The notes under the pieces are model-generated. The model did not search any database. It had not been told where the DNA came from and saw nothing but the letters and a program-made list of their open reading frames with translations. A stretch of 64,000 nucleotides of DNA from an uncultured Anaerolineales bacterium (GTDB lineage: Bacteria; Planctomycetota; Phycisphaerae; FEN-1346), in NCBI GenBank assembly GCA_964526295.1, contig CAZGKW010000007.1, forward strand, positions 5,136 to 69,135. Reading direction: 5' to 3'. Position numbers and translations under genes: made by a program. This document shows, piece by piece, positions 5,236-61,362 of the stretch. The number at the start of each line of letters is the position of its first letter. The first letter of the stretch is position 1.

Positions 5236-5452
5236 TCCGGCCCATGCCGTAGGGCTTCTCGGCGTTGCGAACGAGGCCGGGGGCCGGCCTCAGGTCTGGA
5301 CGGCGGTTCGCCGAAGGACTCAAGCCACCCACGGGTCGGCGGCCCTCCGGGGCCCGCCGGCTTGTCCCCGATTCCTCCTTGACTGCGGTTAGGGCTTGGT
5401 TACGATTGAATTAGCAGTGCCGTTCTTCGGTATCTGCGTCCTTTCGTTGTGG

Positions 5453-5488
5453 GCGCACCGGACCAGCAGCCGGTGCGTCCTTTTTTCT
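5453..5488 (+). terminator. candidate rho-independent terminator
   Basis: GCGCACCGG-ACCAGCAG-CCGGTGCGTC stem-loop followed by TTTTTTCT on the plus strand. It lies downstream of the methyltransferase gene. Confidence 0.45.
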
Positions 5489-5839
5489 GTGCGGTCCCCG
5501 GGGGCCGCACGTCTTCGCATCCGGGGCGATTACGACTGGAAGGGGACCGGCGGCTTTGTGTTCGACCTGGACCTCACCGACGAGTTCCTGAAGCCCGGAC
5601 GTCACCACACGCCGATGGGGACCGCCGGGGCCCTGCTGGAGCACTACTTCGGGGCCTTGGACGACAAGACCTTCCTGCGGCGCCTCGGCACCCCGGCCGG
5701 CGGAGGAGACGATGTGTTCCAGTGGGCGTCGAACCGCTGGTTGGATGCAAGCGATCACCGCGTTGTCGTGTGGGGATTCGTGGTGGTCAATCCCCCCGCG
5801 CGGCGTGCCAAGGTCGTGTGCCACGGGGTTGCCGAGTGA
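5489..5839 (+). CDS. hypothetical protein (start uncertain)
   Basis: This is the 3' part of track ORF 5396..5839. G/C-rich third positions begin around ...GDYDWKGTGGFVFDLDLTDEF.... An in-frame GTG at 5489 is the first plausible start after the terminator. No family was recognised. Confidence 0.35.
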   Translation: MRSPGAARLRIRGDYDWKGTGGFVFDLDLTDEFLKPGRHHTPMGTAGALLEHYFGALDDKTFLRRLGTPAGGGDDVFQWASNRWLDASDHRVVVWGFVVVNPPARRAKVVCHGVAE

Positions 5840-7297: not shown

Positions 7298-7879
7298 ATG
7301 GCCTTCACGCTCCAGATCGGCGAGCGAGCACCCGACTTCAGCCTGCCCGGCATCGACGGCAAGACGTGGTCGCTGGAGGACTTCGACGACGCCGACGTCC
7401 TCGTCGTCGTGTTCCGATGCAACCACTGCCCCTACGTGATCGGCTCGGAGGAGCGGATCAGTGCGGTCTACGAGGACTACCGGCCCAAGGGCGTCGCCTT
7501 GGTCGGCATCAACTCGAACGAGACCGAGAACCATCCCACGGACGACTTCGACCACATGGTCTCGCACGCCGAGGAGCACGGCATCGCGTACCCCTATCTG
7601 TGGGACGAGTCGCAGGACGTCGCCCGGGCCTACGGGGCCCTCCGGACGCCCCACTTCTACGTCTTCGACCGCGACCGGAAGCTTCGCTACACGGGCCGCC
7701 TGGACGACCAGCCGCGGGACGCCTCGCAGGCGACCACGCAGGAGCTCCGCGGCGCCCTCGACGCCGTGCTCGAGGGGCGCGATCCGCCGGTGCCGCTCAC
7801 GAATCCCATCGGGTGCAACGTGAAGTGGCAGGGCCAGGACGCGCACTGGATGCCGCCCGAGGCCTGCGACCTGGTCTGA
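7298..7879 (+). CDS. thioredoxin-fold thiol-disulfide oxidoreductase (redoxin/TlpA-like)
   Basis: ATG at 7298 is preceded by AAAGGGAGAG. The protein [29 protein letters not shown]...FRCNHCPY contains a CxxC motif, and ...[16 protein letters not shown]... is redoxin-like. The upstream part of track ORF 7172..7879 is 5' leader. Confidence 0.8.
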
Positions 7880-7899
7880 GCGGCGCCGCGAGCGATCGG

Positions 7900-8900
7900 C
7901 GCGGTCGGTCTCCGTGCCGACCGCGCTCGGCGGGCGAGGCAGGTCGTGCCGCCCGGCGCGCTTTCTTTCACGTTTTGCCGCGCGGCGGCCAGGACTTTCC
8001 ATCATTTTGGGGCGCGGCGGCCAGTCTTGGCCGCCGCGTGATTCGCGTTTGGAAGTCCCCTCGCGGCGGGCAGGACTGCGCGGCGCGCTTTCTTTCACAT
8101 TTTGTCGCGCGGCGGGCAGGACTTTCCATCATTTTGCCGCGCGGCGGCCAGTCTTGGCCGCCGCGTGATTCGCGTTTGGAAGCCCCCTCGCGGCGGGCAG
8201 GACTGCCCGCCGCGCCTTCGGTTGGGCTGCCCGCCGCGCTTTCGCTTGGACTGCGCGGCGCGCTTTCTTTCACATTTTGCTGCGCGGCGGCCAGTCTTGG
8301 CCGCCGCGTGATTCGCGTTTGGAAGCCCCCTCGCGGCGGGCAGGACAGCCCGCCGCGCCTTCGGTTGGGCTGCCCGCCGCGCTTTCGGTTGGACTGCCCG
8401 CCGCGCTTTCTTTCACATTTTGCTGCGCGGCGGCCAGTCTTGGCCGCCGCGTGACCCGCGTTTCGAAGTCCCTTCGCGGCGGGCAGGACTGCCCGCCGCG
8501 CTTTCGGTTGGACTGCGCGGCGCGCTTTCGGTTGGACTGCCCGCCGCGTGATTCGCGTTTCGAAGCCCCCTCGCGGCGGGCAGGACTGCCCGCCGCGCCT
8601 TCGGTTGGGCTGCCCGCCGCGCTTTCTTTCACGTTTTGCTGCGCGGCGGCCAGTCTTGGCCGCCGCGTGACCCGCGTTTCGAAGTCCCTTCGCGGCGGGC
8701 AGGACAGCCCGCCGCGCCTTCGGTTGGACTGCCCGCCGCGCTTTCTTTCACGTTTTGCCGCCCGGCGGGCTTTCCTTCACATTTTGCCTCGCGGCGGGCA
8801 GGACAGCCCGCCGCGCTTTCGGTTGGGCTGCCCGCCGCGTGATTCGCGTTTCGAAGTCCCTTCGCGGCGGGCAGGACTGCCCGCCGCGCCGACTCTTGAC
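7900..8900. repeat. complex tandem array of palindrome-containing repeat modules (~1 kb)
   Basis: At least six copies of a ~118-nt module GCGCTTTCTTTCACRTTTTGCYGCGCGGCGGCCAGTCTTGGCCGCCGCGTGAYYCGCGTTTSGAAGYCCCYTCGCGGCGGGCAGGACWGCCCGCCGCG, interleaved with ~26-nt submodules CYTTCGGTTGGRCTGCCCGCCGCG. Two internal hairpins recur: GCGGCGGCCAG/TTGGCCGCCGC and CGCGGCGGGCAG-GA-CTGCCCGCCGCG. Overlapping multi-frame ORFs encode the same MKESAPRSP... peptides, which is an artefact of the repetition. Confidence 0.85.
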
Positions 8901-9202
8901 GGAACCTGCCAGACCTCGCCGCACGCAGGAACCCCCTAAGGACCCCCTGTTTCGAGGTTCGTTGGACCCCCGGTGACCCCCCGGCAGCGCCCCGGTTGCC
9001 TCGCGGTTCTCCCCCTGGCGTCGAAGGCGTCTTGCGCCGGCTGGCGGTCACGGACTCGGCGGCCCCTACCGACGAAGCGGGGCCGTCCCACGGGCAACTC
9101 CTCGGAGAAGTTGAATCCGCTCGCCAAGCCTCGGCGAACCCTACCTGAACGCAAGCACGGGGTAAGACAAGGATAACCGAGGGGTAATCAGGGAGCACGA
9201 CC

Positions 9203-10429
9203 ATGGACGCCTACAGGACAACGAGGACGTTTGGGAGGTTGATCGGGGCGGGTTCGGTGGTTCTGGCGGCCGCCGCGGTGGCCCTTGGGAGCGGTGGATG
9301 CACGCCTGAGTCGCACCAGGCGGGACAGGCAGGATCGAAGGACATCGTCGAGCTGGCGGTGGCGGCCGGCGACTTCGAGACGCTGACGGCTGCGGCCAAG
9401 GCGGCCGGCCTCGTCGACGCGCTCAAGGGGCCCGGGCCGTTCACCGTGTTCGCCCCCACCGACGCCGCTTTCGCGAAGCTGCCCGAGGGCACCGTCGAGT
9501 CGCTCCTGGGGCCCGAGAACCGGGGCAAGCTGGCGGCCATCCTCAAGTACCACGTCGTCCCCGGCCGCGTAACGGCCGCCGACGTGGTGAAGCTCTCCGG
9601 CGCGGCGACCCTGAACGGTCAGCGCATCGAGATCAAGGCCGCCGGCGGCAAGGTCATGGTCGACGGGGCGACCGTCACCAAGACCGACATCTTCGCCTCC
9701 AACGGCGTGATCCACGTGATCGACGCGGTCCTCCTCCCCGCGAGCGACGACATCGTCACGACCGCCGTCAAGGCCGGCAGCTTCAGCACCCTGGCCGCGG
9801 CCCTCAAGGCGGCCGGGCTGATCGACACCCTGAAGGGCGAAGGCCCGTTCACCGTGTTCGCCCCGACCGATACGGCCTTCGCCAGGCTGCCGGCCGGGAC
9901 GGTCGAGTCGCTGCTCGAGCCCGAGAACCGGGAGAAGCTGGCCGCGATCCTCACCTATCACGTGGTGCCGGGCCGGGTCTACGCCGAGGACGCCCTCGCC
10001 GCCAAGAAAGCCGGCACGGTCGGCGGGCCGCCCCTGCGGTTCGCCAGCAAGGGCGGCGCCGTCCGCGTCAACGGGGCGACCGTCGTCCTGGCCGACCTCG
10101 ACGCCTCCAACGGCGTCATCCACGTGATCGACTCGGTCCTGCTGCCGCCCGAAAGGCAGGCCCGGGGCCCGTCGGCCCGCGATGAGATCGTCACGGCCAT
10201 CGGGCACGGCTCCAGGATGTACAACGCCGGCCACCACGCCGCGTGTGCCGATCTGTACGAGAAGACGGCCCTGGAACTGGCCCACGCCCGGCCGTCGGAG
10301 CTGACCGCCGGCATGCGTCAGCACCTGATGGCGAGCGTGGAGCGGAGCCGCGGGATGGATTCCGCCAGCGCCAGGGCCTGGCAGATGAGGCATGCATTGG
10401 ATGCCGCCCTGGCGTCGCTGGGCCGCTAG
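9203..10429 (+). CDS. fasciclin (FAS1) domain lipoprotein, two FAS1 repeats plus C-terminal helical domain
   Basis: Signal peptide plus GSGGC lipobox. Two ~130-aa units contain [21 protein letters not shown]...L..IL.YHVVPG and [14 protein letters not shown], the canonical FAS1 H1/H2 motifs. Confidence 0.85.
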
Positions 10430-14314: not shown

Positions 14315-15259
14315 GTGACGAACTTTCTGGGCCTCGAACCCCCAGATGAGGGCGGCCCGGCGGCGGCGCGGTTCGCCGTCCTGCCCGTCCCATACGAGGC
14401 GACGGTCACGTACGAGCGCGGCACGGCCGACGGGCCCGCCGCCATCCTGCGGGCGTCCGAGCAGGTCGAGTTGTACGACGAAGAGCTGGGCGTCGAGTTT
14501 CCCCGGGGGGGCGTCGCCACGCTGCCGCCGGTGAGCTTCGCCGAGCCCGGCCCCGCCCCCGAAAAAGACACTAAGTGTCTTTTCCTCCGAAGGAGCCCGG
14601 CGGGTGCTCCGCAGAAAAGACACTTAGTGTCTTTTTCGGGGGGTTTGCGGCGGGTCCGGGAGGCGGCGCTGCCCCTGATGGAGGCGGGGCAATTCGTCCT
14701 GGCCCTCGGCGGCGAGCACAGCATCACCGTCCCGCTCGTCGAGGCGGCTGCCGAGGCCTTCGGCCCCTTGAGCGTCCTCCAGATCGACGCCCACGCCGAC
14801 CTCCGCGACACGTACGACGACACGCCGCACTCGCACGCCTGCGTTATGCGGCGGGTCCTGGAGGTGACGGACCGCATGTGCCAGGTGGGCGTCCGGAGCT
14901 ACTCGAAGGAGGAGGCGGACGCGTGCCCCGAGGCGATCGGGCGGCTCATCACGCCGGCCATGATTCGCCGGGACCCGGACTGGATCGACCGGGCCCTCGA
15001 CCTGCTCACCGGGCGGGTCTACGTGACGGTGGACATGGACGGGCTGGACCCGTCTCTCGCCCCGGGCGTCGGGACGCCCGAGCCGGGGGGCCTTTCGTGG
15101 GAGGAGGTGACGGGGCTGCTCAGGCGCGTCGCGAGCGACCGGGAGGTCGTGGCGGCCGACGTGGTGGAGGTCCGGCCCATCCCGCCGCACCACGTGACGG
15201 AGTTCGTCGCGGCTCGCCTGGCGGCGAAGCTGATCGCCTACACCGAAGCGAGGCGGTAA
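14315..15259 (+). CDS. speB: agmatinase/arginase-family ureohydrolase carrying an in-frame 73-nt palindromic insertion
   Basis: GGEHSIT, IDAHADLRDTY, SHA and VDMDGLDPS metal-binding motifs identify the ureohydrolase family. The frame stays open across the inserted element at 14563-14635, which adds ...EKDTKCLFLRRSPAGAPQKRHLVSFSG... Confidence 0.8.
   Translation: MTNFLGLEPPDEGGPAAARFAVLPVPYEATVTYERGTADGPAAILRASEQVELYDEELGVEFPRGGVATLPPVSFAEPGPAPEKDTKCLFLRRSPAGAPQKRHLVSFSGGLRRVREAALPLMEAGQFVLALGGEHSITVPLVEAAAEAFGPLSVLQIDAHADLRDTYDDTPHSHACVMRRVLEVTDRMCQVGVRSYSKEEADACPEAIGRLITPAMIRRDPDWIDRALDLLTGRVYVTVDMDGLDPSLAPGVGTPEPGGLSWEEVTGLLRRVASDREVVAADVVEVRPIPPHHVTEFVAARLAAKLIAYTEARR
14563..14635. repeat. 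MITE-like element: two inverted copies of a 21-bp perfect palindrome flanking a 31-nt structured core
   Basis: AAAAGACACTaAGTGTCTTTT (14563-14583) and AAAAGACACTtAGTGTCTTTT (14615-14635). The spacer CCTCCGAAGGAGCCCGGCGGGTGCTCCGCAG has its own inverted repeats. The element is AT-rich in a GC-rich CDS. A third copy lies at 61335-61362. Confidence 0.7.
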
Positions 15260-40119: not shown

Positions 40120-40260
40120 TTGCTTCTTCGGTCTCCTCTGAGCGTGTTCAGGGGAGTCTCGTCAGTTTTTGGCGCGGCGGGTCACCGTGCCCGCCGCGTT
40201 CCGGTGGGCCAGGCGCGGCCGGCACGGAGACCGACCGCGCAGGACCATCCTGGACCCGCC

Positions 40261-42303
40261 TTAGAACGGCAGTTGGAACACGCTTTTCATCAGGAACGTC
40301 ACGCCGATGCTGAACGTTCCGACCAGCCCGACGCCGCACATGAACCCCGCCGCCACGACGGGGATATACTGCCGCCAATTGAGGCCCAGCCGCCGCTGGA
40401 AGTAATACCGGCCGAGCAGGGCCCCGATGAAGTTGGGGATGACCGCGTGGGGCATGGTCTGCCCCAGACCGCGGACGACGCCGTAGACGAGGAACGTCGG
40501 GGCCCCCAGCCGCGTCAGCAGCGTGAACATGAAGGTCCCCAGGACCAGCCCCGCCGCCAGGTAGTCCAGGTTGAACGCCCGCTCGAACAGGGAGTACCCG
40601 CCGAGGGTGGCGCTGTGCATGATGGCCTCGTTCTCGGCGTAGAGGTCCCACATTTTCTGGGCGAACGGGTACTGCGGCCCCGGCACCGGCGCCAGGCCCC
40701 AGATGAAGTTCGCGAACAGCAGGCTCGACAGGATGATGATCGGCGCGAGGATGAGGTCCGACTTCCAGATGCTCGTCACCTTCGTTCCCGTCAGCTCGGC
40801 CTGCCGGAACGACACGGTCTTGACGCCGTAGTTGTGGAGGGGGATGGGCAGGAACCAGACGGCCACCCCCTGGTAGCCCGACAGGATGAACGAGGCCTCC
40901 CGGACGAACGGAATGTTGACCACCTGGCCCGCGATGCCCTCCAGGCGGGCCGTGGCATAGCTGATGAACGGCGTGTAGAGGAAGCCGTAGAAGACCAGGA
41001 CCAAGAGCACGCCCGTGTGGACCCGGCCGTCGGTCAGATAGAGGAGGTAACACGATACGAGGATGTATAGGGCCGTCGAGATGATGTAGGTGATGATGAT
41101 GAAGCGGGTGCGGATGTCGCCCCGGCCGGGCGGCGGGGCGAAGCCCTCCTCCTGGAGCGTGTCCCGCTCCCGGTGCCACCGCCGCAGCTTCACGATGGCC
41201 TGGCAGATGGCCCCGATGCCCACCAGCGCGATCGCCAGCATCAGCCCGATCTGGAAGCTGAAGTAGAAGTCCACCTGGTTCTTGAACAGTGTCGAGATGG
41301 TGTTGTCGGCCCCGGCCTGCCACGCCTCCAGGACGTCCAGCCGATACAGGGCGGGGTTCGCGACCACCGTTACGAGCAGCCCGATGAAGCTGCCCACCAT
41401 CGCCCAGAACGGCAGGACCATGCCGGTGATGAGGTGTCCCAGGTCGAACGAGAGGCCCGTGGCGACGGCGGGCAGGTACTTGCCCGTCTGGGGGGTCCAG
41501 TCGACGAACGGGATGGGCAGCAGGACGATCGGCTTGTCGAGCAGGGCCCCCGTCACGGTCGGAATGCCGATATAGACGGCCCCGAAGACGATGCCGATAA
41601 TCGAGCCGATGGAGAAGACGCGGTATCGCCATCGGGTGGCGGGGCCGGAGGAGGTCTCGTCGGGCGCGCGGTTGGGGTTCTCCTCCTCCTGCTCCTCGCT
41701 GAGCGCCAGCACGCCCTGGGCCTGCAAGGGCGCCAGCGGGAACGGGAGCTTCTCCACGTCGCTTGCCAGGCGGAACAGGCCGTAGCCGAGGATCGTGTTG
41801 TTGAGGCGGCTCATGATCGTCGTGAAGACGATCAGGCCGATCGCCGGGAGCCACTCCCACGTGAAAATCGACCGGTGCGCCAGCACCTCCTGGCTCGGGA
41901 CGAACCAGAACGGGATGTGCTCGGCGATGCCGTGGGCCTCGGCCGCCGTCGACTGGGCGTAGAACTGCTTCCACAGGAGCGAGCCCTTGGGGATGACGGC
42001 GGCCGTGCCGGCCATCGCCGCCGCCGCCAGGTAGAACAGCGTGAAGATCTCGGCCCGTTTGAGGGTCTTGTTCGCCCGCCGGGCCACCTCGATGAACAGG
42101 ATCACCGTGACCCACTGGGCGGCCGGGCCGATCGCCTTGCCCGCCACCAGCGTCATGTAGAGCGCCCCGGGCACCATCACCAGGGCGACGAAGCAGACGC
42201 CGATGAACGACGACCATGTGAAGCCCTCCTCAAACGTGGAGGGGACCTCCAGGAGGCTTCGAAACTCCTGGACTTCCCGGTCGTCGGCGAGTTTTCTGGC
42301 CAT
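40261..42303 (-). CDS. 680-aa polytopic inner-membrane protein of unknown function
   Basis: About 14 predicted hydrophobic helices throughout, G/C-rich third positions, and no recognisable motif. Confidence 0.7.
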   Translation of the reverse strand: MARKLADDREVQEFRSLLEVPSTFEEGFTWSSFIGVCFVALVMVPGALYMTLVAGKAIGPAAQWVTVILFIEVARRANKTLKRAEIFTLFYLAAAAMAGTAAVIPKGSLLWKQFYAQSTAAEAHGIAEHIPFWFVPSQEVLAHRSIFTWEWLPAIGLIVFTTIMSRLNNTILGYGLFRLASDVEKLPFPLAPLQAQGVLALSEEQEEENPNRAPDETSSGPATRWRYRVFSIGSIIGIVFGAVYIGIPTVTGALLDKPIVLLPIPFVDWTPQTGKYLPAVATGLSFDLGHLITGMVLPFWAMVGSFIGLLVTVVANPALYRLDVLEAWQAGADNTISTLFKNQVDFYFSFQIGLMLAIALVGIGAICQAIVKLRRWHRERDTLQEEGFAPPPGRGDIRTRFIIITYIISTALYILVSCYLLYLTDGRVHTGVLLVLVFYGFLYTPFISYATARLEGIAGQVVNIPFVREASFILSGYQGVAVWFLPIPLHNYGVKTVSFRQAELTGTKVTSIWKSDLILAPIIILSSLLFANFIWGLAPVPGPQYPFAQKMWDLYAENEAIMHSATLGGYSLFERAFNLDYLAAGLVLGTFMFTLLTRLGAPTFLVYGVVRGLGQTMPHAVIPNFIGALLGRYYFQRRLGLNWRQYIPVVAAGFMCGVGLVGTFSIGVTFLMKSVFQLPF

Positions 42304-47512: not shown

Positions 47513-48375
47513 CACGCCTGCCCCCCGATCCGGCCCACCCGGACCTCGACGTCCTCGCGTCGGTCGACCCGCTCGATCTGGCCGTCGCGGATCCACATCA
47601 TCCGGTCGCAGACGTCGAGCAGGCGATGGTCGTGCGTCGCACAGACGACCGTCACGCCCTGGCTCTCGTTGAGGCGCTGGAGGACCTGGAGGATCTCGGC
47701 CCCGGTTGCCAGGTCCAGGTTGGCGGTCGGCTCGTCCGCCAGGAGGACCTTGGGCTGGTTGCACATGGCCCGGGCGATGGCGACCCGCTGCTGCTGGCCT
47801 CCCGACATCTCCTTCGGCCGATGGGTCCACCGGTCCGCCAGACCCACCAGGTCCAGCAGCTCCATCCCCCGCCGGCGGGCGGCCTCGGGCGCCACCCCGG
47901 CGAAGGCCATTGGCACCGTCACGTTCTCCAGGGCCGTCATGTACCGGATCAGGTTGTAGCCCTGAAAGATGTAGCCGATCTTGCGGCACCGGAGGAAGGC
48001 CAGCTCCTCGGCGCTGAGTTGGGCGACGTCGGTTTCGTCAATGAGGACCCGCCCCTCGGTGGGCGAGTCGAGCGCCCCGATCATGTTGAAGAACGTCGTC
48101 TTGCCCGAGCCCGAGGGGCCGAGGATGGCGATAAACTCGCCCCGGTGGATGACCGCGTTGACCCCGTTCAGGGCGTAGGTGGTCTTCTCGCCCATCTGGT
48201 AGCACTTGACGAGCCGGAGGGTCCGGATGATGACCGGCTCGTCGGTGGATTGCGGTGTCTCGGTCATCTCAGCTTGCGTGAATCCTTGCGCGTCCACAGG
48301 CCCCGGCGAGCTTCCGCTCGCCGCTCGAAAACTTTCGACTCGGGTTCCCGCCTTCGCCAAGGCGACGGCGGGCAA
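47512..48375 (-). CDS. ABC transporter ATP-binding protein (MacB/FtsE/LolD-type)
   Basis: Walker A GPSGSGKTT, signature MSGGQQQRVAIARAM, Walker B LLADEPTANLD, H-loop ATHD. Confidence 0.9.
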   Translation of the reverse strand: MPAVALAKAGTRVESFRAASGSSPGPVDAQGFTQAEMTETPQSTDEPVIIRTLRLVKCYQMGEKTTYALNGVNAVIHRGEFIAILGPSGSGKTTFFNMIGALDSPTEGRVLIDETDVAQLSAEELAFLRCRKIGYIFQGYNLIRYMTALENVTVPMAFAGVAPEAARRRGMELLDLVGLADRWTHRPKEMSGGQQQRVAIARAMCNQPKVLLADEPTANLDLATGAEILQVLQRLNESQGVTVVCATHDHRLLDVCDRMMWIRDGQIERVDRREDVEVRVGRIGGQA

Positions 48376-51205: not shown

Positions 51206-51250
51206 CCGCTTGGCTCGCCAAGGCAGGCCCGCCTGCCCCCCTCACCCCAC

Positions 51251-51273
51251 CCCTCTCCCACCAGGGGAGAGGG
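51251..51273. repeat. GC-rich palindromic intergenic element (copy 2 of CCCTCTCC...GGAGAGGG + AGGTSATGG)
   Basis: CCCTCTCCCACCAGGGGAGAGGG followed by AGGTCATGG. It lies in the 87-nt gap between the 946-aa and 294-aa genes. Confidence 0.5.
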
Positions 51274-51291
51274 AGGTCATGGCATGCCGGC

Positions 51292-55150: not shown

Positions 55151-55468
55151 TTTCGATTTGCCTCCGGGCGTTTTCTATGCTATATAAAGGGCGCTCGGCC
55201 TTACGGGTCCCCGCCCGCGGCGACCTCTGCCGCCGCCGGCCCTCTCCAACCGGACAAGCCAGATTCGCGGGAATTCCATGCTTGGCCGTCGAGAGCGTCC
55301 GCCACCGCCATCGCCTTTGTTTCGTCCACTGTATCACCCTTTCCACTGACGGCAAGACCCCATCCACGGGGCAACTCGATTCTAGGGGACCATGATCTAG
55401 GGGGCCAAGGAAATTCTGGTGAGGCTTGCGGGATGGGTTTGACAGAAGGAATGAAGATCAGGCGGGGC

Positions 55469-55813
55469 CTAGTTACTGCAGATTTCGGCCACGTTCTCGA
55501 TAAACTTCTCGGGGCTTATATCGGTGCTAATGAAGTCTCGGACAAGGGGGCTATATTGCTGATCTAGGTGCCCCTCGCGGGGCCTGCGGTGCATACATTC
55601 ATAGATCCTATTCAATGTCGAATCCCAAACCTCCCCGTAAGCGTCAATCTCTCCTTTAAGCCGTTCCTTTTCTGCTTCTGTTTCGGCATTTGTGTATTGA
55701 TTGACGAGCGCCTTGTATCGTCCCAGCCTATCGGCCAGCTCGCCCAACGTACACCCATCTGCGTTATCGAGATACCACTTTCTGGCGTTGAATTGGCGAT
55801 TGCCCTTGCCCAT
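55469..55813 (-). CDS. hypothetical 114-aa soluble protein (island gene)
   Basis: Track ORF. No TM and no recognised motif. Low-GC codon usage matches the island. Confidence 0.5.
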   Translation of the reverse strand: MGKGNRQFNARKWYLDNADGCTLGELADRLGRYKALVNQYTNAETEAEKERLKGEIDAYGEVWDSTLNRIYECMHRRPREGHLDQQYSPLVRDFISTDISPEKFIENVAEICSN

Positions 55814-55948
55814 TTGCTCCTCCCCTTCCTCTGCGCCTACGGGTGTGATCGGTTCACTTGCTAGCTCATTCTACAGACTCCCTCACTCAGATTAGACGGC
55901 GCGGTCGGCGTTTTTCCTTGGCCCATCCCGATTCGCGCGGTACTGGCG

Positions 55949-56257
55949 TCATCGTTTCCGAAGTGACGCCAGCCCAAAGCCGACGACAGTTGGGATTGAA
56001 CCCACGACAATAATTACGAGTATGCTATCGATGGTATTTGCTAGCGCGAAGAATAGGAGCGCCGAGAGAATCAGCCCCCCTAGGACGGCAATGGCACCCC
56101 ATCCCGTTGTTGCTTCGGTCTTCTCTCCTGAGATCGGATGCCCACAGTGGGGGCATTGGCAAGCAGATGAACTAACTTGACTGGAGCAAACAGGGCATCT
56201 TATCAGTCCCATTGCAGCCACCTCTTCAGGATCCAAAGATTGTGGCCCGCAACTCAA
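55949..56257 (-). CDS. zinc-ribbon membrane protein (island gene)
   Basis: CPVC...CPHC zinc ribbon, then two TM helices (AIAVLGGLILSALLFFALA / ILVIIVVGSIPTVVGFGLA). The start may be the internal MGLIRCPVC. Confidence 0.55.
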   Translation of the reverse strand: MSCGPQSLDPEEVAAMGLIRCPVCSSQVSSSACQCPHCGHPISGEKTEATTGWGAIAVLGGLILSALLFFALANTIDSILVIIVVGSIPTVVGFGLASLRKR

Positions 56258-56286
56258 GCAGACGGTCGAGACTTAGAGTTGCACGC

Positions 56287-57090
56287 TCAGAGGAACGGGA
56301 CCAACCCGAGGAGGAACGGGATCAGCCCGAGAATGAAGACGCCGACTATGAGCCAAAGTGAACCAACGAAGCCAAGAATTAGTCCGGCCGTGGCTAATCC
56401 CTTCGGTTCGCTGAACATCCCGCAAAAGCTGAGCAGAAGGCCAATGGGTGCAAGGACGCCGCAGGAAAAGAATCCCAGGAGCGAAAAGACGAAACCCGCG
56501 ACCCCCAAAACGTTGCTTCGTGGAGCCTCTATGACAACCACTTGAGACTGGCTTTGCCTTGAAGTTCGGCTGACTTGGCGATAAGGCGCACCCCTGTTGC
56601 TTGGTTGTATATTCGCATTCGTGTGTACATGTGCCGAGGATGGTACAGGAAGCTTCTGTTCGTAAGGTTGAAGGACTTCGCCCTCTATCGCCTGTGTACG
56701 TCCTGCGGTTTCTGTCTTTGCCTTAGCGTCTAGATAAGCCTCAGACTCGCGACGTTTTTGCTCCTGTTCTCTCTTATGTTCTGCTGCGGCTTTGACCTTG
56801 CGCTGTTTTGCTGCTTTTCGTTTCTGTCGATATTCCTTCATTCGCTGTTGCATCTCGGGCCACAGAAGCTGAAACCCAGCGGCTTGGACGATGTTCTGAC
56901 ACTTTGAGCACTGGATATCGTCGCGTCGGTGCTCGTAAGAAACCGTGATCCCGTCGCCACAAACAGGGCACTTAAACCGGACTGGGTGTTTTGCAACCAT
57001 GTCGAATCGCTCTACCTTGACAATCGGAACGGAGCAAATAAGAACTTCATCACTGAGAACGCACGCTTCCCCCCTTCTTCTTCGATTCAA
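56287..57090 (-). CDS. zinc-ribbon membrane protein with Lys/Arg/Glu-rich linker (island gene)
   Basis: CPVCGDG...CSKCQN zinc ribbon, a highly charged KRK-rich linker, and a C-terminal multi-TM segment. The TTG start at 57090 abuts the PEP-CTERM gene stop; an alternative ATG is at 57000. Confidence 0.55.
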   Translation of the reverse strand: MNRRRRGEACVLSDEVLICSVPIVKVERFDMVAKHPVRFKCPVCGDGITVSYEHRRDDIQCSKCQNIVQAAGFQLLWPEMQQRMKEYRQKRKAAKQRKVKAAAEHKREQEQKRRESEAYLDAKAKTETAGRTQAIEGEVLQPYEQKLPVPSSAHVHTNANIQPSNRGAPYRQVSRTSRQSQSQVVVIEAPRSNVLGVAGFVFSLLGFFSCGVLAPIGLLLSFCGMFSEPKGLATAGLILGFVGSLWLIVGVFILGLIPFLLGLVPFL

Positions 57091-57774
57091 TCAGGACTTC
57101 AAACGCTTCCTGCTGTACGATCCCAGAAACCCGAGCCCAATAAGGCCGGAAGCCAACGTTACCGGTTCGGGAATCACGTAACCAGGTTCAAGGTCCACTT
57201 CAATCCTGAGCGTAGCGTAGTCTATGGCCGCATCGTCAGTCAAACGCATGTCGAGTACCCCGTCTTGGAGAAGCGGAAGCCTATCATCCCCCAAGACGTT
57301 CGCGAGGTCGAGCGTCCTCATGCTAGTTCCCGACTCAGGGACGGGGAGCCACCCTAGGTCGCTGAAGGTGTAGTATGGATAGTCCTCAATGGGGTTGTCC
57401 TTGTGAAACACCACCCAGTCGGTGGTCACCAGGCCATCCGTCGCTCGCAAAGCGAAAGTCAGCGTAGCTGCCGTCACTTGCTCTCCTGTCGCAAGCGAAA
57501 ACTCCAGCGTGAACGGCACCAACTGGTTGGCGTGGAGTTCGTCAAAGTCGGACGTTCGAGGAACACGAGGGACTGCAAGCCAAGCTTGCATGCCCGGACT
57601 CAGATATACGTCATCTTCGCTTCCTGCGCCTTCGTAGGTGAACCCGTCAGCGTCGCCCAGCAGGTACTCACGGGTTTCAGGATATGTTATGGCTAGGGCT
57701 GGGACCTGGGCGCAGGCGAAGAAGCCAATCCCACCGGCAACCAAAAAGGCAGCACACTTCCCAAGACATGTCAT
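57091..57774 (-). CDS. PEP-CTERM sorting-signal secreted protein
   Basis: Signal peptide. The C-terminus VIPEPVTLASGLIGLGFLGSYSRKRLKS has the PEP motif, a hydrophobic helix and a basic tail, which is the exosortase substrate signature. Confidence 0.75.
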   Translation of the reverse strand: MTCLGKCAAFLVAGGIGFFACAQVPALAITYPETREYLLGDADGFTYEGAGSEDDVYLSPGMQAWLAVPRVPRTSDFDELHANQLVPFTLEFSLATGEQVTAATLTFALRATDGLVTTDWVVFHKDNPIEDYPYYTFSDLGWLPVPESGTSMRTLDLANVLGDDRLPLLQDGVLDMRLTDDAAIDYATLRIEVDLEPGYVIPEPVTLASGLIGLGFLGSYSRKRLKS

Positions 57775-57888
57775 TCCGCTTCCCCCACTTTTACATTGTC
57801 ATAAACATTCGGCGAACTGGGCAATGTACCTCAAGAACCCGGTTGCGTCAAATAGAAAATGGCGCGCTACTTAGTTCGAGTTGTGCAC

Positions 57889-58425
57889 TTATGCCGCTCG
57901 TGAACAGAGATCCGGCAGGGACTGAAGGGATTTGCGCGAACCCTGGTCCCAGGCCGGGGTCTCCGAAAACCGCTGTCGCAGCGACTGCCGCCGGAGGGTC
58001 GTCAGCAGGTCCGCGAACGCGGCCCGACGCTTCCGGCGGTACCACGGCCGGTGCGGAAAGGACAGATGGCGATGGCCGTCCTGGACGAACCACAGGACGC
58101 TCAGACTGTACAGGAGCGGGGCCGTGGGAGCGGTCCGCTCGACGGCCCGGCGGGTCCAGCCCCGGGGCCCCTCGAAGCCCAGGTGCCCCTTGGCCACGCC
58201 GATGTCATGCTCCTCGCTCACCCACAGCAGCCGGGCCTCGCCCAGGTCGTCCACCAGGTCCGCCCCGTAGTCCCGCGGGACGAAGTTGCCGAACGGTCCG
58301 TTGAACATCGGCCAGGCGGGCGGCCGCGCGCCCTCGGCCGCTGCCGCCATGCCCACTCCCACCAGGGCGATCAGCAGCGTCGCGGCCCGCAGGATCCGAA
58401 GAACACTATTCGCGTTGCCGTGCAT
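57889..58425 (-). pseudogene. partial duplicate of the N-terminal ~100 aa of the downstream PQQ-like lipoprotein, with unrelated tail
   Basis: AWPMFNGPFGNFVPRDYGADLVDDLGEARLLWVSEEHDIGVAKG closely parallels AWPMFNGPCGNFVPLRFDVQLVDDLADARLLWVSEEEDIGIAKG of gene 58406..60067. The remainder is low-complexity. Confidence 0.55.
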
Positions 58426-60284: not shown

Positions 60285-61319
60285 TCAGGCCGCGGGGACG
60301 AGGTTCCGCACCTCGAAGCCGTCGGCCCGTCGGGCCTGGATGTAGCGATTCAGTTCCTCCCGTTCCAGCGTCGTGAACTTCACGCCGCGCCACCGCTCGC
60401 TCGCCCGCCACAGCGTGGCGAACACGAGTTTCAGGCACTCCTTCTCACCCCGGAAGCGCGGCAGGACCTTCGCCCGGCGCCGCTCCTCCACGAAACTCCG
60501 CTCGCACAGGTTCGTCGTCCGCACCGTCCGGGGGTGCCGGCCCGGCAGCTTCAGGTGGGCCAGGCTGGCCGCCAGGTCGTCCTCCAGGCACCCCGCCGCC
60601 GACGGCAGGTCCCGCGAACGCAGCTCCTCCACCAGGGCCTGGGCCCGCTCCCGCCCCAGCTCGTGGTTCGGGGCCTCCCGCACGTCCACCAGCAGCCGCT
60701 TGATCTCCTCACGCTGAGCCTCCGGCACTTTTTCCAGCACGTTCTTCATCTTGTGCACCCAGCACCGGATCCGCTCCGCCGACGGCCACGTCGCCTCGAT
60801 CGCCGCCAGGCACCCCGGCGCCCCGTCGCTCGTCACGGTCAGCGGCGTCGGCAGGCCCCGCTTGCGGGCCAGGGTGTCGTCGACGGCTAGCCAGACCCCG
60901 GCGGCGGGGTCCAGCAGACGCAGCACGAGGTCCAAGGCGGCCAGACCCAACTCGTCGAGCGACCACCGGGCGGCGGCGAAGACCCGGTGGAACGCCGAGT
61001 GGTGCTTCGTGCCGACGGCCCCGGCCGCCTGGATCATGCCGGTGACCGTCCGCCGACGGGCGAATATCCATCCCGCCAGCACGATGAGGAAACTCTGAAA
61101 GGTCGGCCGGGTCATCACGAAAGAAACCTCACGAACCAGCGTCTCGAACGTCGAGACGAATTCCACAGGCGAGCCCTCCTCCGTTCGGTGCGTTTGCCAC
61201 TCACTGAACCGGCAGGAAGGCTCGTTATTTATTGACAAAACTCCCGGCGCCCCACCACCTTGAAAAGTGCGAAACACGAACTGAGTGTCCTTTTGACAGA
61301 AGCTAAGCCCTTTATCCAC
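60285..61319 (-). mobile_element. chimeric/degenerate transposase ORF: IS256-family C-terminal half fused to an unrelated IS (IS701/IS4-like) N-terminal fragment
   Basis: The C-terminus ...SDGAPGCLAAIEATWPSAERIRCWVHKMKNVLEKVP...TTNLCERSFVEERRRAKV... matches the IS256 (Transposase_mut) catalytic half. The N-terminus ...LAGWIFARRRTVTGMIQAAG...HSAFHRVFAAARWSLDELG...LAVDDTLARKRG resembles a different DDE transposase N-terminus. No intact full-length IS256 N-terminus is present. Confidence 0.65.
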
Positions 61320-61334: not shown

Positions 61335-61362
61335 GAAAAAAGACACTTAGTGTCTTTTTTTT
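61335..61362. terminator. third copy of the AAAAGACACTTAGTGTCTTTT palindrome flanked by A and T runs (bidirectional terminator-like)
   Basis: GCGCAGAAAAAAGACACTTAGTGTCTTTTTTTTCC, with the same 21-bp core as at 14563 and 14615. Confidence 0.5.

What the first reader, a model, noticed from the sequence alone, without database searches (positions are those of the whole stretch)
7900..8900. One-kb intergenic tandem array of hairpin-containing GC-rich modules
Between the redoxin gene and the fasciclin gene lie at least six near-identical ~118-nt modules plus interspersed 26-nt submodules. Each module carries two strong palindromes (GCGGCGGCCAG..TTGGCCGCCGC and CGCGGCGGGCAG-GA-CTGCCCGCCGCG). It is not CRISPR-like, because there are no unique spacers. 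The array generates several long spurious ORFs in multiple frames. It could be a REP/BIME-type element array, a binding-site array, or a structured RNA locus. Its size and modular complexity are unusual.
Basis: seen in the sequence. Interest (0 to 1): 0.55.

Follow-up and report, generated by a model that had tools for sequence, protein, structure and literature searches.

The report
Tandem cluster of REP-like palindromes
A 940-base non-coding stretch between two genes is a tandemly amplified cluster of a short GC-rich palindrome that is also scattered between genes in related Planctomycetota genomes; this is a large example, in a little-studied lineage, of an already familiar kind of bacterial repeat (REP/BIME/REPIN cluster).

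Summary
Window 7951-8890 is a head-to-tail mosaic of 29 copies of one 12-nt arm (CGCGGCGG[G/C]CAG or its complement), forming 5 H1 and 8 H2 hairpins joined by a few fixed linkers.

It is not coding. GC3 is flat at 0.70 in all six frames, against 0.93-0.95 in the flanking genes. Unit lengths are not multiples of three, and the longest ORF has no homologue among 5.8 billion proteins. It matches no Rfam family and has no unique spacers. It is absent upstream of the fasciclin gene in a relative (80% identity).

The hairpins belong to a dispersed family with a GCGCGG stem, found in Phycisphaerae-like MAG contigs. These are almost always intergenic, close to stop codons, and usually occur as inverted doublets with the same 23-24-nt spacing as H1-H2. 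One MAG carries the whole ~105-nt module once, at 89% identity.

Best reading: a REPIN/BIME-like cluster amplified by unequal recombination or slippage. Membership in the RAYT-mobilised REP family is unproven: there is no GTAG/CGTC tag and no RAYT in the sequence available. The interior copy number rests on one assembly.

Known kind, new member; modest interest.

The parts
7951..8890 (+). Whole repeat array: a head-to-tail mosaic of 15 F arms (CGCGGCGG[G/C]CAG) and 14 R arms (reverse complement), plus variant arms, joined by fixed linkers. All linkers are in one orientation.
   Evidence: fold z = -13.3; GC at all three codon positions 0.70 in all six frames
8013..8038 (+). H1 hairpin (CGCGGCGGCCAGTCTTGGCCGCCGCG, 11-bp stem, pyrimidine-rich centre), first of 5 copies. 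The others are at 8140-8165, 8283-8308, 8426-8451 and 8642-8667.
   Evidence: perfect-stem scan
8189..8214 (+). H2 hairpin (CGCGGCGGGCAGGACTGCCCGCCGCG, 12-bp stem, purine-rich centre). It resembles H1 in the opposite orientation. Intact copies are also at 8332-8357, 8475-8500, 8572-8597, 8691-8716, 8790-8815 and 8863-8888. A degenerate copy is at 8062-8087.
   Evidence: My hand comparison of the two 26-mers: reverse-complemented H2 differs from H1 at 3 of 26 positions, direct H2 at 5 of 26.
8166..8188 (+). L3 spacer (TGATTCGCGTTTGGAAGCCCCCT, 23 nt) between H1 and H2. Seven copies in four sequence variants, at 8039, 8166, 8309, 8452, 8549, 8668 and 8840. Two of the variants look like recombinants of the other two.
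   Evidence: The 23-24-nt spacing matches the dispersed doublets.
8263..8282 (+). L2 linker (CTTTCTTTCACATTTTGC..), T-rich, between one unit and the next H1. Seven copies at 7961, 8088, 8263, 8406, 8622, 8741 and 8770. A related variant, L4 (GACTTTCCATCATTTTG), is at 7993 and 8120.
8200..8267 (+). Run of the 24-nt sub-repeat (R arm CTGCCCGCCGCG plus a 12-nt linker C[C/T]TTCGGTTGG[A/G]). These are orphan half-palindromes downstream of H2. Similar runs lie at 8343-8410 and 8486-8626.
   Evidence: period 24, 2.8-5.8 copies
8108..8238 (+). Example of a composite unit predicted to fold as a three-way junction: the orphan F arm (8108-8119) pairs with the orphan R arm (8227-8238), enclosing H1 (extended by TTCCA/TGGAA pairing of L4 with L3) and H2.
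   Evidence: DNA fold -62.3 kcal/mol, z = -5.27
7899..7926 (+). Single hairpin of the same family but another subtype (GCGCGGTCGG-TCTCCGTG-CCGACCGCGC), 20 nt after the redoxin stop codon. Terminator-like position.
40173..40198 (-). Another member of the hairpin family elsewhere in the window (CGCGGCGGG-TCACCGTG-CCCGCCGCG), 63 nt downstream of the stop of the minus-strand OPT-transporter gene 40261-42303.
   Evidence: similar to L006 1144-1174

Best explanation
The array is a non-coding REP/BIME-type cluster: a tandem amplification of a REPIN-like doublet.

Anatomy. The basic unit is two 26-bp GC-rich palindromes of one family in inverted orientation: H1, with centre CAGTCTTG, then H2, with centre CAGGACTG. 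They are separated by a 23-nt spacer (L3) and followed by a T-rich linker (L2). The same hairpin family (invariant GCGCGG...CCGCGC stem base, variable upper stem and loop) is scattered through intergenic regions of Phycisphaerae-like Planctomycetota genomes. There it lies mostly just downstream of stop codons and mostly as inverted doublets.

How it arose (inferred). One such doublet sat between the redoxin gene and the fasciclin-ECF sigma operon. Unequal recombination or replication slippage between the identical 12-nt arms multiplied it head to tail. Three features point to this:
- The linkers were co-duplicated with the hairpins.
- Blocks of 143 and 216 nt are repeated at 87-94% identity.
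- The spacer variants look recombinant.
The same process would have produced the runs of orphan half-arms at a 24-nt period.

Likely effects (inferred from what is established for REPs in E. coli, not shown here). A stack of very stable hairpins, each followed by a T-rich tract on the sense strand, would block read-through from the redoxin gene and protect its mRNA 3' end. It would also insulate the downstream operon, whose candidate promoter lies downstream of the array. No product of its own is expected.

Not established. Whether the family is mobilised by a RAYT-type transposase is unknown.
For: Not coding:
- GC at codon positions 1/2/3 is 0.70/0.70/0.70 in all six frames, against GC3 of 0.93-0.95 in the flanking genes.
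- No ORF in 7880-9202 passes a GC3-based gene call.
- Unit lengths of 143, 97 and 119 nt are not multiples of three.
- The longest array ORF (220 aa) has no homologue.

Dispersed family:
- The exact 24-nt H2 core occurs in 27 stretches of species-representative genomes. Eleven of them are contigs of a single Phycisphaerae MAG.
- The fetched loci L003-L029 hold 79 family hairpins in 170 kb; my arithmetic from the locus lengths and one search counts gives about 51 besides the seed matches.
- 81 of 84 family hairpins are intergenic, although only 20% of the sequence is. The median distance to a stop codon is 61 nt. Thirteen lie between convergent genes and 4 between divergent genes.

Doublets:
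- 47 of 83 hairpins are paired, and 16 of 25 pairs have the same pyrimidine-then-purine orientation as H1-H2. Preferred spacers include 23-24 nt, the H1-H2 spacing.

The module is a discrete unit:
- L008 59-163 carries L2-H1-L3-H2 once, 89% identical over 109 nt.

Lineage dynamics:
- The array is absent upstream of the fasciclin gene in the relative L002 (80% protein identity). L002 still has two family hairpins 21-25 nt after stop codons.
- An orthologous doublet is 86/87 identical between L004 and L029 while the flanks diverge.
- Hairpins are present or absent at an orthologous intergenic site in L013 and L016.

Precedent:
- Tandem REPIN clusters that include flanking sequence, over 700 bp long (PMC3116915).
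Against: - No GTAG or CGTC tag flanks the hairpins: 7 chance-level hits among 83 hairpins, and none in the array.
- No RAYT/Y1 transposase was found in the 64-kb window or in the loci fetched up to then (L001-L149; more than 170 kb). The searches were Pfam on 46 window proteins, tblastn, and phmmer/hmmsearch on all six-frame ORFs. The sequence sampled is a small fraction of any genome.
- Within the window, H1/H2 arms occur only in the array. Only two other family hairpins, of other subtypes, are present. High copy number in the source genome is therefore not shown.
- No second array with the same 24-nt unit appeared among the 120 metagenome stretches returned by a truncated scan, and the L3-H2 junction pattern gave 0 hits.
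- One doublet is conserved more strongly than the neighbouring coding sequence. That could mean selection for a function rather than selfish spread.
- The MAG taxon labels conflict. 'Anaerolineales' contigs are 85-87% identical to Phycisphaerae contigs, so the breadth of distribution is uncertain.
Confidence: 0.72

Rival explanations
1. Selected terminator/insulator array. The hairpins are the lineage's factor-independent terminators or mRNA 3'-end protectors. The array would be kept because it isolates the redoxin transcript from the ECF-sigma-controlled fasciclin operon.
For: - Family hairpins sit 7-35 nt after many stop codons, including 7899-7926 after the redoxin gene and two in L002.
- On the sense strand each H2 or R arm is followed by a T-rich tract such as CTTTCTTTCACATTTTGC. 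AT skew is -0.17 in 8001-10000.
- The consensus scan flags two H2 copies as terminator-like.
- One doublet directly after a stop codon is 86/87 identical between two species whose flanks diverge.
Against: - One hairpin would be enough; more than 13 is hard to justify functionally.
- The relative L002 runs the same operon without any array.
- Dispersed copies generally lack a T tract.
- The terminator-like count in the region (5) is not above shuffles (3.0 ± 2.0).
- This reading is compatible with, and secondary to, a REP-cluster origin.
Confidence: 0.15
2. Protein-binding platform. The array would be a centromere-, iteron- or operator-like site: about 29 copies of a 12-bp site, many of them as perfect 26-bp palindromes suited to a dimeric DNA-binding protein.
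For: High density of one 12-nt motif in both orientations. The palindromes are perfect. The stem base GCGCGG is invariant across the family while the upper stem varies, which could reflect protein recognition.
Against: - No ParA/ParB, replication initiator or dedicated regulator is encoded in the window.
- The same hairpins are scattered after stop codons in many unrelated loci.
- The array is absent in the relative L002.
- There are no plasmid or phage matches.
Confidence: 0.06
3. Structured non-coding RNA gene, or an array of sRNA-like units.
For: Extreme predicted stability (z = -13.3). Weak sub-threshold resemblance to the Pxr sRNA (28.5 bits, E = 0.014).
Against: - The Pxr score is far below the gathering score of 80, and no Rfam family reaches its gathering score in the window.
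- No sigma-70-like promoter was found.
- The locus is absent in the relative L002.
- The ensemble is dominated by interchangeable arm pairings; the MFE structure has a frequency of about 0 in the ensemble.
Confidence: 0.04
4. A real repetitive protein is encoded in one of the open frames.
For: Open frames of 220-362 aa cross the array.
Against: - Codon-position GC is flat in all six frames.
- Repeat units shift the reading frame: 143, 97 and 119 nt.
- No homologue at E <= 0.001 among 5.8 billion protein clusters.
Confidence: 0.01

Closest known systems
Tandemly repeated REPIN / REP clusters of Pseudomonas fluorescens SBW25 (Bertels & Rainey 2011, PMC3116915)
   Same: - The unit is two inverted REPs separated by a short spacer.
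[quoted passage not shown]
- The largest cluster there is over 700 bp, and arrays of 12 REPs are described.
- The elements are extragenic.
- In both, most hairpins occur as doublets: 47 of 83 here, 61% in SBW25.
   Different: - No RAYT gene was found nearby or in any sequence available.
- Each REP here is itself a perfect 11-12-bp palindrome.
- The array also holds runs of orphan half-arms at a 24-nt period.
- The host is a Planctomycetota-like organism rather than a gammaproteobacterium.
E. coli BIMEs (bacterial interspersed mosaic elements)
   Same: A mosaic of one palindromic unit in alternating orientation, joined by a small set of conserved linker motifs. It lies between genes at their 3' ends (definition as given in PMC2817692 and PMC3733652).
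   Different: - There is no GTAG tag.
- Alternation is not strict, because extra same-orientation R arms are present.
- Binding of IHF, gyrase or Pol I, which characterises BIME classes, is not testable here.
GTAG- and CGTC-tagged REP superfamilies (Di Nocera et al. 2013, PMC3733652)
   Same: - Short GC-rich stem-loops, frequently as dimers 1-100 bp apart.
[quoted passage not shown]
- The paper reports such repeats in Planctomycetes.
- A GTAG-tagged doublet with almost the same stem (GTAG-CGCGGTGGGCAGTCCTGCCCACCGCG) exists in metagenome contigs.
   Different: The hairpins of the array, and the 83 dispersed relatives examined, carry neither tag.
Streptococcus pneumoniae BOX elements (recalled from my own knowledge, not checked here)
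   Same: A modular intergenic repeat built from a few box types, with a variable number of the middle module and strong predicted secondary structure.
   Different: Unrelated sequence and a low-GC host. BOX modules are not simple perfect palindromes, and BOX elements are not amplified into kilobase tandem arrays.
CRISPR arrays
   Same: Regularly recurring short palindromic repeats in a non-coding array.
   Different: There are no unique spacers; every interval is one of five recurring linkers. Repeats occur in both orientations. No Cas family appears among the 46 window proteins scanned.

Membership tests
REP (repetitive extragenic palindrome) | Short (20-40 bp) GC-rich imperfect palindrome | tested here: met
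   26-30-bp hairpins with 10-14-bp stems
REP (repetitive extragenic palindrome) | Extragenic location, typically at gene 3' ends | tested here: met
   81 of 84 are intergenic against a 20% intergenic fraction. Median distance to a stop codon is 61 nt. Convergent to divergent is 13:4.
REP (repetitive extragenic palindrome) | High copy number dispersed through one genome (about 100 or more) | tested here: inconclusive
   Eleven contigs of one MAG carry the exact H2 core. Roughly one family hairpin per 3-4 kb in the fetched loci (my arithmetic), but those loci were selected for holding one. In the window there are only 2 outside the array in 63 kb. No complete genome was available.
REP (repetitive extragenic palindrome) | Unpaired GTAG or CGTC tag at one end (the two superfamilies of PMC3733652) | tested here: not met
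   The tags appear at chance level next to 83 hairpins, and none of the four tetramers occurs in 7941-8900.
REPIN / RAYT system | Two REPs in inverted orientation separated by a short spacer | tested here: met
   H1 and H2 have inverted centres 23 nt apart. 16 of 25 dispersed pairs have the same orientation, and 23-24 nt is a recurrent spacing.
REPIN / RAYT system | A cognate RAYT (Y1 HUH transposase) gene flanked by the REPs | tested here: inconclusive
   None in the window (Pfam) or in the loci fetched up to then (tblastn, phmmer, hmmsearch). The method detected a RAYT in the unrelated contig L100, which serves as a positive control. Only a small part of any genome was searched.
BIME | REPs in alternating orientation joined by a limited set of conserved linkers | tested here: met
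   H1(Y)-L3-H2(R)-L1/L2 recur. There are 7 L2 and 7 L3 copies, all on one strand. Alternation is imperfect because of the orphan R arms.
BIME | Binding of IHF, DNA gyrase or Pol I | not testable with these tools
   Needs biochemistry.
CRISPR | Direct repeats separated by unique spacers, with cas genes nearby | tested here: not met
   All intervals are recurring linkers. No Cas Pfam family in the window.
Rfam families (closest match: Pxr sRNA, RF01812) | Score at or above the family's gathering threshold | tested here: not met
   Best score 28.5 bits against a gathering score of 80. No family reaches its gathering score anywhere in the window.
Intrinsic (Rho-independent) terminator | GC-rich hairpin followed by a U tract | tested here: inconclusive
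   Two H2 copies and three other sites fit a loose consensus, but the count is not above shuffles (5 against 3.0 ± 2.0). Dispersed copies mostly lack T tracts.
Repetitive protein-coding gene | Codon-position bias, frame-preserving repeats, orthologues | tested here: not met

The most novel reading that the evidence does not exclude
The GCGCGG-stem hairpin doublets are not RAYT-type selfish DNA. They would instead be a lineage-wide functional signal of Phycisphaerae-like Planctomycetota: for example a tag-less, U-tract-less terminator or 3'-end protector, or the site of an unknown hairpin-binding protein, maintained by selection.

Two observations leave this open. One doublet is 86/87 identical between species whose coding flanks diverge. 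No GTAG/CGTC tag and no RAYT were found.

On this reading the 940-bp array would be a functional 'super-site', either an insulator or a protein-loading platform, upstream of an operon encoding an ECF sigma factor and a B12-binding-domain protein.
Probability: 0.15. Interest if true: 0.55.

Novelty: new member of a known kind. Interest (0 to 1): 0.3.

Why it matters
REP/REPIN biology is known almost entirely from Proteobacteria. This locus documents a tag-less palindrome family with a doublet (REPIN-like) organisation in Phycisphaerae-type Planctomycetota, and it shows that family amplified into a ~0.9-kb tandem cluster.

Practical consequences:
- Such arrays break short-read assemblies; two independent assemblies stop at its edges.
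- They generate long spurious ORFs.
- They can mark rearrangement sites. The genes upstream of the fasciclin operon differ from those in the nearest relative, starting exactly at the array.

If the family turns out to lack a RAYT, it would be a useful test case for how palindromic repeats persist without a dedicated transposase. Otherwise this is an ordinary genome feature.

Tried and rejected
- Coding repeat protein: rejected on flat GC3, frame-shifting units and no homologues.
- CRISPR: rejected, because there are no unique spacers and no cas genes.
- Known RNA family: nothing at gathering score. The weak Pxr, miRNA and M23 hits are GC-hairpin noise.
- Conserved regulatory element of the fasciclin operon: rejected. 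L002 has the same operon and a conserved promoter-like block, but no array.
- Phage or plasmid origin: no hits.
- Metagenome scan for the L3-H2 junction: 0 hits.
- Metagenome scan for two R arms 8-20 nt apart: at least 120 hits, but almost all are unrelated GC-rich coding or tandem repeats. The one related class is a GTAG-tagged doublet inside a longer inverted-repeat element. No array with the same 24-nt unit was seen.
- Looking for other arrays through spurious ORF homologues: nothing.
- RAYT search: negative in the window and in the loci fetched up to then, with positive control L100.
- Identifying the source record: only Logan short contigs were retrievable and no names were given. The taxon was inferred from the best named deoxyhypusine-synthase hits, which are Planctomycetota/Phycisphaerae at 75-77% identity.
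- Cross-phylum distribution: not accepted. The 'Anaerolineales' and Phycisphaerae MAG contigs are 85-87% identical, so at least one label is wrong.
- DNA uptake sequence (inverted pairs forming terminators, as in Neisseria; from my own knowledge): rejected, because the arms vary with compensatory changes.
- Integron attC array: rejected, because there are no cassettes and no integrase.
Full report
**1. What is in the sequence**

The gap between the AhpC/redoxin gene (7298-7879, +; Pfam) and the fasciclin gene (9203-10429, +) is 1323 nt. Its core, 7951-8890, is highly repetitive.
- Tandem Repeats Finder reports overlapping periods of 24, 97, 119, 143 and 216 nt.
- The repeat finder gives seven in-register copies and 111 inverted-repeat pairs.
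- Tokenising the sequence shows a mosaic of one 12-nt arm, F = CGCGGCGG[G/C]CAG, and its complement, R = CTG[C/G]CCGCCGCG.
- The arm occurs 29 times between 7981 and 8888. About 4.6 hits at one mismatch or fewer are expected by chance in the whole window, and 0 of 100 shuffles reached 34.

The arms form two perfect palindromes.
- H1, CGCGGCGGCCAGTCTTGGCCGCCGCG, occurs five times.
- H2, CGCGGCGGGCAGGAC[T/A]GCCCGCCGCG, occurs seven times intact and once degenerate.

Every interval between arms is one of a few recurring linkers.
- L3 (23 nt) lies between H1 and H2; seven copies.
- L2 is a T-rich linker, CTTTCTTTCACATTTTGC; seven copies.
- L4 is a variant of L2.
- L1 (12 nt), together with an R arm, makes the 24-nt sub-repeat.

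All linkers lie on the + strand, so the array is strictly head to tail. The array folds far better than shuffles: z = -13.3 for the whole and z = -5.3 for one unit, which is predicted to form a three-way junction.

The '118-nt module' and '26-nt submodule' are approximations of variable 97-143-nt units and a 24-nt sub-repeat.

Two independent short-read assemblies (Logan) are 100% identical to the window up to 8041 and from 8885 onward, and both stop inside the array. The edges are therefore independently verified, but the interior copy number is not.

**2. It is not a gene and not a known RNA**

- Codon-position GC is 0.70/0.70/0.70 in all six frames of the array. GC3 is 0.93-0.95 in the flanking genes.
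- A GC3-based gene caller finds nothing in 7880-9202.
- Units of 143, 97 and 119 nt would shift any reading frame.
- The longest array ORF (220 aa) has no homologue at E <= 0.001 among 5.8 billion protein clusters.
- No Rfam family reaches its gathering score in the window. The best sub-threshold hit is Pxr at 28.5 bits, against a threshold of 80.
- No sigma-70-like promoter was found. The terminator-like count is not above shuffles.

**3. Context and conservation**

The window encodes ordinary chromosomal genes. There are no Cas, Par, integrase or Y1-transposase families. The best named hits of its deoxyhypusine synthase are Planctomycetota/Phycisphaerae MAG proteins at 75-77% identity.

A relative (L002) has a fasciclin protein 80% identical and the same fasciclin-ECF sigma-B12-binding operon, with many of the same downstream genes. 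It has different genes upstream and no array. The array therefore sits exactly where the two genomes stop being collinear.

A block, GAAGTTGAATCCGCTC-N9-CGGCGAACCC, about 65-100 nt upstream of the fasciclin start is conserved in both. I read it as the operon's promoter, possibly of ECF type; this is an inference. It lies downstream of the array, so the array is neither part of the conserved control region nor required for the operon.

**4. The hairpins belong to a dispersed family**

The exact 24-nt H2 core occurs in 27 stretches of the species-representative genome collection. All are singles, and eleven are on different contigs of one Phycisphaerae MAG (BLK5-1.bin.98). The rest are in MAGs labelled Planctomycetota, Planctomycetaceae, Anaerolineales or Gemmatimonadaceae.

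The neighbouring hairpins in those loci share one design.
- The stem base is invariant: (G)CGCGG...CCGCG(C).
- The upper stem varies in a paired fashion. This is partly circular, because the scan required pairing.
- A few loop types recur: CAGTCYTG/CARGACTG, TCTCCGYA/TRCGGAGA and TTCCCA/GGGA.

The window has two more members, at 7899-7926 (20 nt after the redoxin stop) and 40173-40198 (63 nt after another stop). L002 has two, 21-25 nt after stop codons.

Statistics outside the array:
- 81 of 84 hairpins are intergenic, against a 20% intergenic fraction.
- The median distance to a stop codon is 61 nt.
- 13 lie between convergent genes and 4 between divergent genes.
- 47 of 83 are in pairs no more than 60 nt apart.
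- 16 of 25 pairs have the pyrimidine-centre-then-purine-centre orientation of H1-H2.
- Spacers cluster at -2, 7, 13-14 and 23-24 nt; H1-H2 is 23 nt.

By my hand comparison, reverse-complemented H2 differs from H1 at 3 of 26 positions and direct H2 at 5 of 26. H1 and H2 are therefore best read as one repeat in inverted orientation, which is the REPIN layout.

One MAG contig (L008 59-163) carries the complete L2-H1-L3-H2 module once, 89% identical over 109 nt. The module is therefore a discrete, dispersed unit.

Between related genomes the hairpins show both kinds of behaviour.
- Persistence: an orthologous doublet is 86/87 identical while the flanks diverge.
- Turnover: hairpins are present in one genome and absent in the other at an orthologous site.

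Caution on breadth: 'Anaerolineales' contigs are 85-87% identical to Phycisphaerae contigs. At least one label is wrong, and a cross-phylum distribution is not established.

**5. Mechanism**

Shown:
- The anatomy: inverted doublets plus fixed linkers, reiterated head to tail.
- Block duplications: 143-nt units at 94% identity and a 216-nt unit at 87%; 180-nt copies at 91-93%.
- Four L3 variants, two of which combine the differences of the other two.
- A junction where an R arm replaces the 3' arm of H1 (8537-8571).

Inferred: a resident doublet was amplified by unequal recombination or replication slippage between the identical arms, rather than by repeated transposition. The runs of orphan half-arms at a 24-nt period arose in the same way.

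Inferred from established REP biology in E. coli, recalled from my own knowledge and summarised in PMC3733652: the hairpin stack would stop read-through transcription and 3' exonucleases, insulating the downstream operon.

**6. Comparison with known systems**

The closest precedents are:
- the 'large REP clusters' of reiterated singletons or dimers with flanking DNA (PMC3733652);
- the BIMEs of E. coli.

Membership in the RAYT-mobilised REP family is not established.
- Neither the GTAG nor the CGTC tag is present.
- No RAYT was found in the window or the fetched loci, although the same search found one in an unrelated contig, L100.
- A GTAG-tagged doublet with almost the same stem does exist in other metagenome contigs, inside a longer inverted-repeat element. 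This hints at a link but does not prove one.

**7. Verdict**

It is a new member of a known kind. Its size is at the upper end of the REP clusters described, but it is not exceptional. Interest is modest (0.3).

The most novel reading still open (about 15%) is that this tag-less hairpin family is a selected signal of the lineage rather than RAYT-dependent selfish DNA.

Noticed in passing
window 14560-14646 (inside the arginase-family gene 14315-15259, +); also 61336-61360: An in-frame insertion of about 87 nt (29 aa) inside the arginase-family coding sequence. It is built from two AT-rich hairpins, AAAAGACACT(A/T)AGTGTCTTTT, at 14563-14583 and 14615-14635, in a 70%-GC genome. The orthologue in L002 lacks exactly these residues. 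A third copy of the hairpin lies in an intergenic region at 61336-61360. It looks like a miniature palindromic element tolerated inside a gene.
   Followed up: partly
window ~55400-57900: A low-GC island (GC about 0.55 against 0.70 elsewhere). It holds small ORFs of 102-267 aa that my GC3-based gene call did not pick up, and I did not scan them against Pfam. A Mutator-family transposase fragment (60285-61037) lies about 2.4 kb downstream. Probably horizontally acquired.
   Followed up: no
window ~9107-9141; L002 ~9912-9946: A conserved block, GAAGTTGAATCCGCTC-N9-CGGCGAACCC, lies upstream of the fasciclin gene in both genomes, while the rest of the upstream region is poorly alignable. It is a candidate (possibly ECF-type) promoter of the fasciclin-ECF sigma-B12-binding operon.
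   Followed up: partly
window 48347-48374 and 51237-51275: Two other short intergenic repeats are shared with the MAG loci: TGCCCGCCGTCGCCTTGGCGAAGGCGGG (28/28 identical to L006) and a CCCTCTCCC...GGGAGAGGG hairpin with a GGGGTGAGGG tail (L019, L021, L025). Further small repeat families are therefore present in this lineage.
   Followed up: no
L036, L057, L069, L079, L082, L085, L120, L128, L137, L141, L142, L147 (metagenome contigs): A recurrent element with a central overlapping hairpin doublet, CGCGGTGGGCAGTCCTGCCCACCGCG/CGGCGGGCAAGACTGCCCGCCGCG. In several copies it is preceded by GTAG and embedded in longer inverted flanks (GTAGTCCGTCACA...TGTGACGGACTAC). It is a GTAG-tagged, MITE-like relative of the hairpin family.
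   Followed up: partly
L100 (JABAHS010156388.1) 1-900: A classical RAYT gene flanked on both sides by tandem GTAG-tagged REPs (CCCGTAGGAGCGGCCGTTGGCCGCGAAC). On one side there are four or five direct copies of a 35-nt unit. The family is unrelated to the one studied here; it served as a positive control for the RAYT search.
   Followed up: yes
L013 ~440-620 and L016 ~5300-5560: A conserved, hairpin-rich non-coding block (ggcgtcgcggagcgacgccgaga..agccccggccgcaaggccgggg...gcggaccccggactcgcgtccggggctacc) is shared by two related MAGs within an otherwise divergent intergenic region. It may be a structured RNA; it was not examined further.
   Followed up: no
L003-L029 (genome-contig hits): MAG taxon labels conflict. 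Contigs of 'uncultured Anaerolineales' SRP141376_co1_325 are 85-87% identical over 1-1.7 kb to contigs of the Phycisphaerae MAG BLK5-1.bin.98.
   Followed up: partly
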